A DNA stretch of 63,116 nt, counting the filler, from Kipferlia bialata (taxonomy: Eukaryota): assembly GCA_003568945.1 (NCBI GenBank). It is 7 parts of 7 records of this genome, joined end to end, with 100 filler letters (N's around TTAATTAATTAA, not from the genome) between each part and the next. Parts side by side here need not be neighbours in the genome. Positions count along the whole stretch, not along the records: positions 1 to 10,905 come from BDIP01001335.1; positions 11,006 to 21,901 come from BDIP01001336.1; positions 22,002 to 32,895 come from BDIP01001337.1; positions 32,996 to 43,880 come from BDIP01001338.1; positions 43,981 to 54,858 come from BDIP01001339.1; positions 54,959 to 60,376 come from BDIP01001369.1; positions 60,477 to 63,116 come from BDIP01001411.1. One strand, written 5' to 3'. Numbering within the stretch: the stretch's first letter is position 1; every line of letters starts with the position of its first letter. The translations under genes were made by a program, and so were the position numbers. Below are positions 1,235 to 62,990 of the stretch, piece by piece. The notes below the pieces were generated by a model, which saw only the letters and a program-made list of their open reading frames with translations, did not search any database and was not told where the DNA came from.

Positions 1235-4200
1235 TTACTCCACCTCAAGTACTGTCTCTACACCCCTGATGAGAACAATTGGCACACCCCTAGGTATCAA
1301 TCATTGACAATGGGAGAGTGGTATCAAGTTAGAGTGAAGACTGTATTTTCTCTCATACTCATATATATTACTCCCACCACTTCCAATCTCTTCACACGAG
1401 GTACACTCTCACCTGATGTCGCAGATGGCATTGCACCAGGCCACATATAGGGCAGGCTCGATATCCAGCTGTGGTGGGAGAGTGAGAGAGAGGAAGAAAA
1501 GAGTAGAGAGACTGGGGGCCAAAGAAGGAAATAGACTATATGTACCTGGGGCAATGGCATTGTCACAAAGACAGCGTTGGAGCCGGATGACAGGTGGCTG
1601 ATCACATTGCCTGGTATCAATTTATAGCCATATAGTTACTATTCAACACTAGAACAAATTTGGCAACAATTCAATATATATGATTCAAGAGTACATATAC
1701 CGTACCCAGTCTGTAGAACCGCCTTGTCTGCTGCACTATGTCCATATAGGTATCATATCTATAGACATAAACATGTATCTATACAGATAGATTCTTAGAT
1801 ACTCGTACCTAGTCTGTAGAACCGCCTTGTCTGCTGGACCATGTCCTTGGGGACAGGGACACTTCTGAGGGTAAGACCCATAGAATGAGTGTATCTGTGA
1901 AATGGGGTACACGGTCACTGCTGGGCATAGGGGCGTATATTTAGAGAATAGTATTGAGCCTACATTTAGACATGGTCCAAGGATACTTCTGGGAGCGGCA
2001 GACACACGGACAATTGGCATAGTCCCACTGATATGATACACGTATCGATGGGACAGACATACCTCAGGTAATATCCAGACTGTTGTACAGGAGTGGGACT
2101 AGCAGCAGCAGAGACAGTGGCACTAGGAGTGGTTCCCCTCAGTGTCTCTCTCTCCCTTCCACCCCACAGCATGGCCAGTCCACTGGGCGGAGTCGCATGT
2201 CCGTCTCTCCCTCCCTCTCTCCCTCTGTCTCTCCCTACTACCTCTCTGCCTGTGGTAGGTGCTGCCTCGTCTGCCTGGGACGCTGGGTGTGAGTAAATAT
2301 ATGGGTCAGATGTCAGTTTCGCTATTGCACCATGCTCTTGAACAGTGCATATTCATTATACTCTTACGTAACTACATTATATAGATATACTGGTGCTACC
2401 TCCTCCATCGAGCTTCCACAGTCCAAACACGCTCCCATGGTCACTAGTGCCCTCCAGTCTCTCAGCGGTGCCCATGTCAATGGTGAGGGCGGCATCTCTG
2501 CAGTGAGAGAGAGAGTGATACTGAACATATTAAACATCCCAAGAGGATAAGAGTGATACTAATATACAGTCATTCACATACACATATATGTACAGTGTCA
2601 ATAGTCAGGGCGGCATCTCTGCAGTAAGCGAGGGGGGAGAGGTAGTGTGTTAAAGGTATCGGCCCAATGAGATCAATCCAACAGTGAGAAGAACGTGACC
2701 GATGGGAAACTGAGCAAGAGAGTGAGACAGATACACGACTATGAACGCCTACAACATTATGGATATCTGACTGGTGCGATTATACTGTCACACTCACACC
2801 AACCTGTGGCTGCTGAGGAATGAGTTGAGGTGGGACTCTTCCCCAGGGGACAGGTCCCCCTCGCCCTGGGAATCAGTGGGGGCGCTCTCCAAATATATCC
2901 TTTTCTCACACATCTGTGTTTGGAACCCTATACACCACCCTCAGTTTACCAATGAGGAAATAGTAGGGTCCACTCAAGAGAGAAGTATCACAACTCTCAC
3001 CTTTCCACGCATCTCTGTCTTAAAGCCATTTGAAAGGGTGGGGAAGGCACTCAAAGAGGAGTCCCACGACTTGTGTAGCAGAGAGGGGGGGATGACCTGG
3101 GGAGAGTGATCGTAATCACAGTAATACTGATACATATACAATAGAGAGAACTAGGCCCACATCCACCGGTACTACTAACCTGCACCTCGGCCTTTATGCG
3201 CAAGCCATGCAGGAAGGTCTCCATCCTGGTGGTCAGCAAACACAACGATACTCAATAGGGGGTTGAAAAACGTATATTGGCCACAGTACCTCTGCCTCTG
3301 CTCTGTGAGCTCTCTCCCAAGGGCGCTGCAGAACACACGGAGCTGACAGCCTCTGGGGTTAGTTGCATTGGCATACATATATGTATATGTTAATATTTAT
3401 ACGAGTGAGTGAAGCTATAGTTGACACCCTCTGGGGTTATGATAGTGAAACTGACAAGCATAGTGATATCACCATAACTCTAGTATGAGGAATACTATTG
3501 CAGTTCTCTGTATTATGTCGGTATGCCACCTCCAGTCGGGACTCATGCTCATGAGGTATGCCAGCAGGAGTGTCAGGCCACCGTCATCGGCAAGCCAGTA
3601 CACATCAAGGCGGCCTGACTTGGATCTAGACACGGACGCTGCCTAGTATCAGAGGCTTGTTGTGCAGTAGATACACTATACATATATAGTATGCTGATAC
3701 AGTATTGTAGGCTACAATTTGTAGCAGACGTACCTGTGCATAGAGGTGCTCAGTCCCTCCGACTGTAACCACTCCCTGACCCAGCGCGCAGGCATCGCGT
3801 AGAATACCGACCTGTCATTAGATGAAGTGAAGTTAAGCATAGAGTAAGTGTGTAGTACCACACACCCACTCATCCGCAGATACTCCAGGTGCCATCAGAG
3901 GGGGTGCCACTGGGTGCTTGACAGAGGGGTGGTGGGACTCAATGGCAGTGACGCCCTATAGTGTTAGACTATATACCATATTGATGTATAAGAATATATA
4001 GATCTCAAACACATGTAATGGGACTTAACAGTGACCCCTTGTAGGGTTAGCATCACACCGGGTGACAATGAATGAGTAACAATAATCAGTGATACCCTCG
4101 ATTGAATCCACAACTCTTCTTACCTCCTCCAGTAGTGTCTTCATGCCCACAACCACAGTGTTGGAGTGGAAGGGTCCAATGCCACTGGTTGTAAGGGAGA

Positions 4201-61065: not shown

Positions 61066-62990
61066 CTACACTGTCTGGAACGGCTTCCTCCTACCACTCA
61101 CTCTCCCTGTAGTACCGCCTCTCTGCCTCAGGGCATCTGTGTACTTGGACGGGGCACCAGAGGTGAACACACGCTCACTCCTAGTGGTAAGCACACACAT
61201 ACATACACATATATTGACATACACACACAGAGAGAGAGTACAGGGCACCAGAGGTGAACACACGCTCACTCATTGCGTAAGCATATTGTGTCAGCCATAG
61301 AGAGAGAATATGCAAGAACACATCATTGTGATGTAGTACAGTATGTGATGACTCCTACATCACTTCTTAATTATTACAATTATTATTATTATTGCTTGTC
61401 TCATGAATACAATGACACATACACTGAGAGAGTATACATATTGAATGTAAGTGTGATGTTGTCTATATTGGAACCTACCATCTAATTGCCTGTCTCCTGA
61501 GCCTGACCCACTTCCTCTGTGATCTGGTCTGTCTCATATATATATATATATATCATATGTATAGGGCTATACTTGTATATATGGCTATCTTGCATATACC
61601 TCCTGATTGCCTGTCTCCTCAGCCTGTCCCACTCCTCATAAGCAGAGACATACATACAGAGAGAGTATATAGGTAACACATGCTGTAGTATTGTATATAC
61701 CTTCTAATTGCCTGTCTCCTCAGCCTGTCTCACATATAATATATATATATACATAGCACATATGTATATACGGCTATCTTTTGTCCAACCTTCTAATAGC
61801 CTGTCTCCTCAGCCTGTCCCACTCCTCTGTGATCTCAGTGTTGGCAGCCAGGCGCCGCTCAAGGGCCTGTGATCAGAGAGAGAGAGAGAGAGAGAGTCAA
61901 AGGCAGAGACCATGAAGGAACGGTGCTGGGCCTAGGATAAGAGAGAGAGAGAGAGAGAGACTATAACAGGTACATACCTCTATGTTGGCCTCTCTCTGGG
62001 CTCTCTCCCTCTCCCACTCATAGGAGTCCCTCGCTAGCCTCTCCCTCCCCTTCCGCTCAGCCGCTGCCACAGCTGCCTCTCCAACTGAGGTTTAGACTGG
62101 GAACGAGAGACTACTATCATAGAGCCACTCTATAGTCTACCCTCATAAAACGCAAATCTGCAGAACTCACCTCGTGTGACTTCCTCTGTCCTGTCTGCGA
62201 GGTATGCGTTGTATGCCACCAGTCTGTCTGCCTCACTCTGCAGGGCCTGTCTCTTGGCCTGGGCAGAGGTCACACTGAGGTTAGATATATACTTGTATAC
62301 GGAATATGGCGGGTATATGTTGAGAGAGAGAGAACAAGATAGACGATGAGAGAGTGACGTGGGGTACTCCCTCTGTGATATCAATGGTACCTCTCTCTAA
62401 AGTGTGCCCCCAGTTCCAGCAGTCTCATCTCACCCTCGTCCCTGTCCTGCTGGGCCTGGGGTTAGATATATATAAATGTATATAGAGTGTCAGATACATA
62501 GTTATAAAATATCTGTTGTGTATCAGCGGAATGAATATAGAACACAGAGTACATATAGTAGTACCTTGTGCAGTGCAGCGGCATCAGTGCATCAACAGAG
62601 TGAATAGAGTACTGAATATAGGACATATAGCTCATATATAGTGTACAGTATATAGTATATCGTATAGTACCTTGTGTAGAGCCACGGCGTTTCCACTCCG
62701 GATGTCCTGGAGGAGCTGGGTACTCTCACTATAGGGTAAGTAATGAGAGGTAGGAATAGAGGTAGGATGAGAGAGGAAGGGAGCTGCACTAACTGGAATA
62801 TGTGATATAGCAAATAATAAGACAGTATGGGGGGAGGGACGACGAGAAGAATGTTATTATATATTACCGAGAGAGTGAGGATTGTAGTACTATTATAAAA
62901 GAAATACATTATACCTGGTATGCCTCTCCAGCTCTGCCTTCAGACCCGCAGTCTCTGCAGTCCCCTCAGTCTCAATGCGCTCTAGCTCCC
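61066..62990 (-). CDS. Coiled-coil protein C-terminal exons (unknown); 5' partial
   Basis: ELERIETEG...KAELERH; AQAKRQALQSEADRLVAYNAYL; ALERRLAANTEITEEWDRLRRQAIRR; last exon ...RRKPFQTV*. Confidence 0.6.

What the first reader, a model, noticed from the sequence alone, without database searches (positions are those of the whole stretch)
1700..61870. Polarised, synonymously recoded half-exon 'echo' stacks inside introns across unrelated genes
Seen: in both SLC12 genes, the Slo channel, the Cys-module gene, RABGGTA and others, introns carry 1-6 truncated copies of the adjacent exon. Copies after an exon comprise its 3' end + GT. Copies before an exon comprise AG + its 5' start. Copies within a stack often share a breakpoint, their intronic spacers are frequently unalignable (TA)n/(CT)n sequence, and substitutions in the exon-derived part are overwhelmingly synonymous. 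Established: a dead duplicate should accumulate mostly non-synonymous changes. Inference: the copies were coding until recently, or are still used. Best model: after one junction-spanning tandem duplication, unequal crossover or conversion anchored in the exon homology repeatedly pushes functional exon ends from divergent alleles into the intron. That would be an allele-archiving treadmill, implying cryptic recombination and explaining intron growth. Alternatives: nested or unusual splicing, or DNA-level swapping of exon ends. I know of no description of this pattern, but I have not searched.
Basis: partly seen in the sequence, partly recalled or inferred. Interest (0 to 1): 0.93.

Follow-up and report, generated by a model that had tools for sequence, protein, structure and literature searches.

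The report
Retired exon ends stacked inside introns
In a free-living single-celled eukaryote, about four in ten of the introns examined hold half-copies of the neighbouring exon that differ from the working exon mostly by silent changes, likely because DNA repair between very different versions of a gene swaps in a new exon end and parks the old one in the intron, which would make them a fossil record of hidden recombination and a major source of intron length.

Summary
The pattern is real. In 13 modelled genes (Kipferlia bialata by protein matches), 68 of 162 introns hold 144 half-exon copies in 90 stacks of 1-6. All have the stated polarity. Independently assembled DNA contigs span them at even depth; RNA contigs splice around them. 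Copy and working exon differ at 29% of four-fold sites but 6% of non-degenerate sites (ratio 0.17; a dead duplicate gives about 0.55). The synonymous offset is the same in seven unrelated genes (p=0.84) and fits copies born about 23% divergent at silent sites and nearly identical in protein, then decaying neutrally, outer copies oldest. Polarity alone is forced geometry, and 'overwhelmingly synonymous' is 61% of changes. Most likely these are once-functional exon ends displaced by exon-anchored recombination between strongly diverged alleles, in a lineage reported to lack NHEJ and Rad51A. Whether donors are alleles (hidden sex) or co-resident gene copies is open: RABGGTA has three records with one protein, but the most echo-rich gene shows no close second copy. 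Each copy adds about 100 nt, 45% of modelled intron sequence. No description found in 10 literature searches.

The parts
11129..21750 (-). SLC12 gene b (exons 21878-11007): 43 half-exon copies in 27 stacks, 21 of 33 introns
   Evidence: model = record KIPB_005619, Pfam SLC12; copies; DNA and RNA contigs
21300..21750 (-). five AG + 5'-start copies of exon 21267-21175, two interleaved synonymous haplotypes, incl. Ser AGT/TCC swap
16743..16807 (-). 65-nt 3'-end + GT copy of exon 16935-16845: 10 synonymous, 1 non-synonymous difference counted, clustered near the splice site
   Evidence: in one DNA contig with its exon and skipped in RNA
13287..13652 (-). four 3'-end + GT copies of exon 13789-13699, three with one breakpoint; all carry Glu where the exon has Asp and the paralog has Glu
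1706..9358 (-). SLC12 gene a (exons 9801-1413): 14 copies in 11 stacks, 10 of 36 introns; stack of four at 7965-8243
   Evidence: one exon hits Pfam AA_permease
   Evidence: first 206 aa of my model equal record KIPB_005620
44561..51888 (+). Cys-module gene (exons 44088-52073): 24 copies in 17 stacks, 12 of 21 introns; stack of four at 44561-44951
   Evidence: frame from open-frame continuity only
53593..54497 (-). unnamed gene (exons 54659-53435): 6 copies in 4 stacks, 3 of 3 introns
55703..59383 (+). RABGGTA (exons 56124-59786): 17 counted copies in 9 stacks plus 4 uncounted in the first intron
58407..58667 (+). three 3'-end + GT copies of exon 58190-58347: four different synonymous haplotypes of the same 17 codons, no amino-acid change
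61240..62582 (-). coiled-coil-like gene (exons 62989-61102): 5 copies in 3 stacks
28760..41517 (.). contrast region: six genes with 4 copies in 3 of 44 introns; these four differ by 1 synonymous and 7 non-synonymous changes
   Evidence: two genes here are single records

Best explanation
The half-exons are non-coding leftovers that were likely working exon ends until recombinational repair, pairing through exon homology with a strongly diverged allele, likely installed that allele's exon end, splice site and a piece of its intron next to the exon body and so pushed the old end into the intron. Steps: (1, inferred) a break in an exon is repaired from a homologous chromosome whose exons differ by about a quarter of silent sites and whose introns barely align; (2, inferred) synthesis runs through the donor's exon end and 40-110 nt into its intron, then rejoins the other broken end by end joining or by annealing to an existing copy, which keeps the breakpoint; (3, shown) the copy next to the exon body is the one spliced into mRNA; (4, shown) displaced ends decay neutrally and older ones lie deeper; (5, inferred) they are tolerated because the spliceosome pairs sites across exons and ignores half-exons.
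For: Four-fold sites differ at 247 of 841, non-degenerate sites at 181 of 3052; ratio 0.17 (95% 0.12-0.24, one copy per stack) against 0.54-0.56 simulated for self-duplication with the same detection; same in the two genes with externally confirmed frames (123/416, 85/1407). 14 codons change at 2-3 bases yet keep the residue. Four-fold changes are balanced (79 GC>AT, 77 AT>GC), non-degenerate ones AT-biased (82:48). Four-fold divergence is uniform over seven unrelated genes (0.21-0.39, p=0.84) and over copies (dispersion 1.18), non-degenerate divergence is not (2.22, p=6e-10); fitted birth values 0.23 and 0.003, 2dLL 112 over 'born identical' (87 first-rank copies). Where exon and outermost copy agree, the innermost copy has a private base at 20 of 111 four-fold but 16 of 510 non-degenerate sites (p=1e-7), so each copy has its own functional history. 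Outer copies are more decayed (0.078 vs 0.041; 17 vs 8 of 32 stacks, p=0.048). Only 3 of 144 have a near-identical intron flank; the 37 alignable flanks are 76% identical at the median. Spacers (median 67 nt) are shorter than echo-free introns (97 nt) and the central core keeps ordinary length (85 nt). The one detected SLC12 paralog is not the source: at 43 copy codons where it differs from the exon, copy = exon 24, = paralog 7, other 12, and echoed codons are no closer to it (32/325 vs 56/592). PMC8516963 (passages read): metamonads lack NHEJ, fornicates lack Rad51A and have two Dmc1 paralogs; PMC6719624 (abstract and section 17 read): Dmc1-type residues stabilise mismatched triplets and aid repair from templates 20% or more divergent.
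Against: No second isolate or allele was seen, so the donor is inferred. Copies are concentrated in some genes (65/118 vs 3/44 introns), even in neighbours on one scaffold, which a genome-wide allele pool does not predict by itself; 2 of 3 echo-rich genes tested have further records in the same assembly, 2 of 2 echo-free genes do not. The 4 copies in echo-poor genes look neutral (1 synonymous, 7 not; post hoc grouping) and their flanks do not align either, so non-aligning spacers are not diagnostic. The recombination signal in stacks is weak: 15 of 42 informative site pairs incompatible, from 2 stacks and non-independent trios. The data cannot tell a copy born divergent from one born identical whose exon was soon converted. 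One 63-kb window only.
Confidence: 0.45

Rival explanations
1. Same exon-anchored misrepair, but the donors are diverged copies in the same nucleus (paralogs, or homeologs left from an old genome merger). No sex or population hyperdiversity is needed.
For: RABGGTA has three K. bialata records on separate contigs with the same protein (my model 362 of 362 identical); SLC12b has a 90% identical paralog, seen at equal DNA depth and apparently with a copy of its own; the echo-free WD40 gene and the ribosomal-protein gene are single records; copies in echo-poor genes look neutral; amino-acid changes in copies fall at sites that also vary in the paralog (19/43 vs 34/456, p=2e-9).
Against: The most echo-rich gene (10 of 10 introns) is a single record at 90% and no other K. 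bialata representative was found (a 50-90% copy would be hidden). Unrelated gene families should differ in age, yet the offset is uniform. Birth value 0.003 at non-degenerate sites is far below the SLC12 paralog's 10% amino-acid difference. Stacks hold up to 4-5 mutually different haplotypes. Redundancy could merely relax selection against copies.
Confidence: 0.25
2. Copies are born identical by ordinary tandem duplication across one junction; afterwards normal allelic gene conversion replaces the working end with other alleles faster than the copy decays, and microsatellite slippage scrambles the spacer.
For: Gives the same offset, polarity and decay; a few copies do have near-identical flanks (3 of 144); neutral-looking copies with unalignable flanks exist.
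Against: Copies with 0-1 differences over 28-40 nt mostly have unrelated spacers; only 6 of 54 well-sampled copies have no four-fold difference (2.6 expected by chance), so a born-identical class is small; still needs diverged alleles.
Confidence: 0.15
3. The copies are still under selection for the protein because they are sometimes used: by rare or nested splicing, or by DNA pop-out that makes a copy the working end.
For: 50 of 68 donors and 51 of 75 acceptors in copies score above the 10th percentile of real sites; all 22 introns with both kinds are ordered donors-then-acceptors, as nesting would need; contigs drop rare variants.
Against: No second site at the far end (5 of 76 and 2 of 68, background 9% and 4.5%); added length is random modulo 3 (49/41/54); RNA contigs skip 13 copies in 7 introns with 0 other letters in 8 pieces; copies collect indels (12), stops (2) and AT-biased changes; silent divergence does not spread with age.
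Confidence: 0.08
4. Assembly artefact: haplotypes or paralogs stacked in tandem by the assembler.
For: Short-read assembly rich in microsatellites; run X1 may be the data the window was built from, so it is a re-assembly, not a second sample.
Against: In X1 contigs 8 of the 23 copies in the laid stretch lie in one piece with their exon end, 0 other letters, depth 365-425 throughout (16 pieces shown, 322 not); stacked haplotypes would need junction words that do not exist and would halve depth; decay by rank is not an assembler's product.
Confidence: 0.03
5. Plain dead duplicates; the bias comes from the working exon's own silent evolution, mutation bias or detection bias.
For: Polarity and decay fit; the 4 copies in echo-poor genes fit.
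Against: Simulated ratio 0.54-0.56 vs 0.17 observed; the exon would need 4-5 times the neutral rate, and even that fails to give private silent changes in inner copies.
Confidence: 0.02

Closest known systems
[quoted passage not shown]
   Same: A duplicated piece of exon with a splice signal ends up inside an intron next to its source.
   Different: There an exonic AG|GT is doubled and a new intron is made from an identical copy. Here existing junctions are doubled, no new intron position arises, copies recur in stacks and are born divergent at silent sites.
Tandem exon duplication and mutually exclusive exons (PMC6071210, PMC8373072, search listing only)
   Same: Adjacent homologous exon sequence with synonymous-biased divergence.
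   Different: Those are whole exons with both sites and are spliced in; these are about 41% of the exon (median), have one site and are skipped in RNA.
Tetrahymena LRR 90-bp exon arrays (PMC6564038, abstract and passages read)
   Same: Protist genes reshaped by unequal crossing over and ectopic recombination between exon/intron units, with intron lengthening.
   Different: Whole coding exons in one repeat family with a retrotransposon; here half-exons in unrelated housekeeping and transporter genes, non-coding, no element seen.
Silent-cassette gene conversion (Borrelia vls, Neisseria pilS, trypanosome VSG pseudogenes; recalled, no call)
   Same: Partial non-expressed copies related to an expressed sequence by recombination.
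   Different: Cassettes store amino-acid variety and donate to the expressed site; these copies keep the same protein, decay, and appear to be displaced products, not donors.
One-sided invasion / aborted SDSA with end joining, and unequal exchange between repeats (recalled; search found no paper using 'one-sided invasion' among those listed)
   Same: The repair chemistry it most likely works like: homology at one end, copied donor DNA, non-homologous or misaligned rejoining.
   Different: Known from induced breaks and single loci; not described, in the papers found, as a genome-scale, junction-centred, recurrent process leaving allele-like exon ends in four of ten introns.
Nested introns, stwintrons, recursive splicing (PMC8469720, PMC7138796, search listing only)
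   Same: Extra donor and acceptor signals inside an intron.
   Different: There the inner intron must be removed first; here 46 of 68 introns have extra sites of one kind only, and the outermost sites are used.

Membership tests
Dead partial duplicate (pseudo-exon relic) | Not spliced into mRNA | tested here: met
   13 copies in 7 introns skipped in RNA contigs; contigs miss rare forms
Dead partial duplicate (pseudo-exon relic) | Neutral decay after birth | tested here: met
   over-dispersed, AT-biased non-degenerate changes, indels, older further out
Dead partial duplicate (pseudo-exon relic) | Born identical to its source; ratio about 0.5 against the working copy | tested here: not met
   0.17 vs 0.54-0.56; 2dLL 112
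Intron gain by tandem duplication | Doubled exonic AG|GT creates a new intron position | tested here: not met
   far ends carry splice-like sites at background rate (5/76, 2/68)
Intron gain by tandem duplication | Intervening sequence is itself a copy of the neighbouring sequence | tested here: not met
   107 of 144 flanks not above unrelated-intron control; 3 of 144 near-identical
Mutually exclusive / tandem duplicated exons | Whole exon with acceptor and donor | tested here: not met
   median 34 nt, 41% of the exon; one 12-nt exception at 47709-47720
Mutually exclusive / tandem duplicated exons | Alternative inclusion in mRNA | tested here: inconclusive
   none seen in contigs; raw reads not available
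Nested / recursive introns | Inner donor-acceptor pair in the right order | tested here: inconclusive
   22 of 22 introns with both kinds are ordered, but 46 of 68 have one kind only
Nested / recursive introns | Splicing intermediates at the inner sites | not testable with these tools
   only contigs were held for run X2
Silent-cassette conversion systems | Cassettes hold amino-acid diversity | tested here: not met
   fitted birth divergence 0.003 at non-degenerate sites
Silent-cassette conversion systems | Transfer from cassette to expressed site | not testable with these tools
   needs clones or raw reads
Products of recombination between diverged alleles | Uniform, allele-like silent divergence across unrelated genes | tested here: met
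   p=0.84 across seven genes; dispersion 1.18
Products of recombination between diverged alleles | The same variants segregate as exon alleles in other individuals | not testable with these tools
   one sample only; no relative in metagenome contigs
Products of recombination between co-resident gene copies | Echo-rich genes have further copies in the genome | tested here: inconclusive
   2 of 3 echo-rich yes, 2 of 2 echo-free no
Products of recombination between co-resident gene copies | Copy or working end matches the other gene copy | tested here: not met
   for the one SLC12 paralog: 7 of 43 codons match it, 24 match the exon; DNA of the RABGGTA copies could not be fetched

The most novel reading that the evidence does not exclude
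Kipferlia runs a genome-wide treadmill in which repair between alleles about 25% apart at silent sites keeps replacing exon ends and stacking the old ones in introns, so that one haploid-looking genome holds a dated series of past alleles: direct fossil evidence of sex and extreme diversity in a fornicate, a new route of intron growth, and proof that a reduced spliceosome picks sites by exon definition.
Probability: 0.4. Interest if true: 0.92.

Novelty: new variant of a known kind. Interest (0 to 1): 0.78.

Why it matters
It gives a measurable, sequence-only record of recombination between strongly diverged gene versions in a lineage where sex has not been seen directly and which is reported to lack NHEJ and Rad51A (PMC8516963). 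If the donors are alleles, population diversity and recombination can be read from one genome. It accounts for about 45% of intron sequence in the modelled genes (101 nt per copy on a 108-nt base), which bears on the argument that the many introns of this species show the ancestral fornicate state (PMC5874029; that concerns intron number, this concerns length). About 100 strong decoy splice sites are skipped or predicted to be skipped, a natural test of exon definition in a spliceosome with only 87 of 174 surveyed proteins (PMC6679479, passages read). The copies also derail gene prediction (record KIPB_005620 stops inside one).

Tried and rejected
A metagenome scan with the SLC12 protein gave one locus, a bacterial false hit. 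Only 6.2 kb of one gene could be laid with runs; both runs are contigs, so rare splice forms and rare DNA pop-outs are untested. No listed run is on record as RNA; X2 is a guess, but its contigs join exons. Pfam and PDB gave nothing for the Slo-like protein; single exons of the Cys-module gene gave no Pfam hit. Pooled divergence by rank showed no clean trend (pN 0.058, 0.066, 0.040, 0.084); only the paired inner/outer test did, at p=0.048. Selective loss of GT/AG or of the last exon base was not seen (88% and 80% kept). Breakpoint phase is random (27/28/35). The quartet test fits neither a star nor a single clonal tree but rests on two stacks. Amino-acid changes are only mildly conservative (mean BLOSUM -0.09 vs -0.62). 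Earlier notes of this scan: nothing for this genome. Literature: 10 searches listed no description of the pattern; the genome paper PMC5874029 has 0 hits for 'duplicat', 'paralog', 'heterozyg', 'ploid' in its main text (section 12 read). Its supplements and those of PMC8516963 (gene presence tables per species) were not opened; most subscription papers are not in the library.
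Full report
Setting. The window is a string of contigs joined by N-linkers (pieces 1-10895, 11006-21901, 22002-32895, 32996-43880, 43981-54858, 54959-60377, 60478-63116), so neighbouring pieces are unrelated. Exon queries match Kipferlia bialata records at 100%, on contigs whose lengths equal those pieces. Introns are GT-AG, rich in (TA)n, (CT)n and (GA)n, with the branch motif close to the AG. Self-BLAST shows many short direct repeats 60-330 bp apart, dense in most pieces and nearly absent from 28.7-43.9 kb.

Gene models. SLC12b was aligned exactly to record KIPB_005619 and corrected at two junctions; RNA contigs confirm several joins. The other 12 genes came from a small gene finder plus hand curation to open frames. 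RABGGTA equals record KIPB_005777 at 362 of 362 residues and the Slo-like model equals KIPB_005620 up to where that record ends; the Cys-module and two unnamed genes rest on open-frame continuity only. SLC12 and the prenyltransferase repeat are confirmed by Pfam; the labels UTP18, PUM, LPCAT, SDF2, TyrRS and RPS7 that I used as handles are recalled from motifs, and 'Slo' was not confirmed.

Each exon end was aligned into both flanking introns. At score 9 or more (0 of 1058 in foreign-intron controls, which required GT/AG) there were 157 hits, of which 13 were the same stretch aligned from the wrong end and were dropped. The 144 copies form 90 stacks of 1-6 in 68 of 162 introns; 68 are 3' ends downstream and 76 are 5' starts upstream, none opposite; GT is kept in 60 of 68 and AG in 61 of 76. 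Median length is 34 nt, 41% of the exon. Breakpoints agree within 3 nt in 36 of 92 pairs against 15% by chance. Polarity itself says little: any duplication across one junction that leaves the gene intact must look like this.

It is in the DNA and is spliced out. Over 11030-17230, contigs of run X1 carry 8 of the 23 copies in one piece with their exon end, without other letters, at depth 365-425 (16 pieces shown, 322 not). X1 may be the data behind the window, so this tests assembly, not biology. Contigs of run X2 join exon to exon across 7 echo-bearing introns (13 copies), with the exon-body version of the sequence. The one variant RNA form reads, by hand translation, as the paralog KIPB_004392, not as the copy. 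Far ends have no second splice site above background, and the length that use of a copy's site would add is random modulo 3. Yet 50 of 68 donors and 51 of 75 acceptors in copies score like real sites, so the spliceosome must prefer the first donor and the last acceptor; exon definition is the natural inference.

The synonymous bias is strong and needs an outside source. Differences fall 107/88/364 on codon positions; 343 are synonymous, 216 not. Four-fold sites differ at 247 of 841, non-degenerate sites at 181 of 3052: ratio 0.17 (0.12-0.24 with one copy per stack). A dead self-copy against a working exon gives 0.54-0.56 under the same detection. Fourteen codons change at two or three bases and keep the residue. 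Two layers separate cleanly: four-fold changes are directionally balanced (79:77), uniform across seven unrelated genes (p=0.84) and across copies (dispersion 1.18); non-degenerate changes are AT-biased (82:48), over-dispersed (2.22) and larger in outer copies (0.078 vs 0.041, p=0.048). A fit to 87 first-rank copies gives birth divergence 0.23 at four-fold and 0.003 at non-degenerate sites plus mean decay 0.057, 112 log-likelihood units (2dLL) better than 'born identical'. A fast-evolving exon cannot explain it, because inner copies have private silent bases where exon and outermost copy agree (20/111 vs 16/510). The stack at 58407-58667 shows it by eye: four versions of 17 codons, no amino-acid change. 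In long copies the half near the splice site is more diverged at silent sites (97/213 vs 61/226) and less at non-degenerate sites (29/725 vs 45/790) than the half near the breakpoint (59 ungapped copies of 36 nt or more), as expected if later exchanges renew the splice-site end of an older copy.

The spacers are not copies. In 107 of 144 cases the intron flank of the copy is no closer to the exon's flank than unrelated introns are; the 37 that align are 76% identical at the median and only 3 are near-identical. Spacers are 37-117 nt (median 67), shorter than echo-free introns (97), and the core between the innermost-facing sites has ordinary length (median 85). Each copy adds 101 nt to a 108-nt base, about 14.6 of 32.2 kb of intron.

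Mechanism. The economical reading is repair that pairs through exons, the only good homology between diverged gene versions, copies the donor's exon end, splice site and part of its intron, and rejoins so that the old end is left in the intron; an existing copy then serves as a second pairing site, which explains shared breakpoints with different spacers (23 of 36 pairs). Break, invasion and rejoining are inferred; use of the inner-body end, decay and order are shown. The lineage context fits: no NHEJ in metamonads, no Rad51A and two Dmc1 paralogs in fornicates (PMC8516963, passages), and Dmc1-type recombinases tolerate mismatches (PMC6719624, abstract and section 17).

Who the donor is remains open. 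For alleles: the uniform offset, the near-zero protein difference at birth, up to five mutually different haplotypes in a stack, and the failure of the one SLC12 paralog to match either copies (7 of 43 codons, 4 sites, against 24 matching the exon) or echoed exon parts. For co-resident copies: RABGGTA has three records with one protein on separate contigs, SLC12b has a 90% paralog, while the echo-free WD40 gene and the ribosomal-protein gene are single; copies cluster in some genes (65/118 vs 3/44 introns) and the four in echo-poor genes look neutral (post hoc). Against that, the most echo-rich gene shows no close second record. The quartet test leans to recombining lineages but rests on two stacks. 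I put alleles at 0.45, co-resident copies at 0.25, born-identical-then-converted at 0.15, still used at 0.08.

Novelty. The parts (partial duplication, unequal exchange, repair from diverged templates) are known; it fails the defining tests for intron gain by duplication, mutually exclusive exons and silent cassettes, and half-fails those for a plain dead duplicate. Ten searches listed no account of recurrent, junction-centred, allele-like half-exons, and the passages read of the species' genome paper do not mention them; supplements were not opened and the library lacks most subscription papers. I rate it a new variant of a known kind, of high interest (0.78), with a 0.4 chance of the boldest reading.

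Noticed in passing
window 56124-59786: RABGGTA, usually a single gene (recalled), has three K. bialata records on separate contigs with the same protein; DNA of the other two could not be fetched.
   Followed up: partly
window 25603-25640: The public model KIPB_005620 splices into an upstream half-exon copy and stops there (207 aa), so the copies truncate gene predictions; the window's RABGGTA record also has a different, probably wrong, last exon.
   Followed up: partly
window 12983-13017: An X1 contig from another locus, likely the SLC12 paralog, goes back 35 bases here, as if it has its own upstream copy of this exon start, which the window lacks (table 5).
   Followed up: no
window 47709-47720: A 12-nt copy of an exon start has both an AG and a strong GT and is in frame: a possible real micro-exon.
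   Followed up: no
window 8849-8862: An SLC12a exon that is needed for the frame has a TG instead of an AG acceptor behind a normal branch motif.
   Followed up: no
window 11006-21901: Acceptors are very regular, with a YTNAC-like branch motif 2-9 nt before the AG, resembling the fused branch/acceptor motif recalled from Giardia and Trichomonas.
   Followed up: no
window 14662-14694 and 8044-8084: Two copies carry clean internal deletions of 10 and 11 nt; 12 of 144 copies have gaps.
   Followed up: partly
window 40844-43280: A tyrosyl-tRNA-synthetase-like gene start (label recalled) runs for three exons and then into unrelated, partly broken coding sequence; possibly a fragment or fusion.
   Followed up: no
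window 13699-14363 and 16845-16935: The SLC12 paralog is patchy in likeness: near-identical in parts of a few exons, saturated at silent sites in others, as gene conversion between the two would leave.
   Followed up: partly
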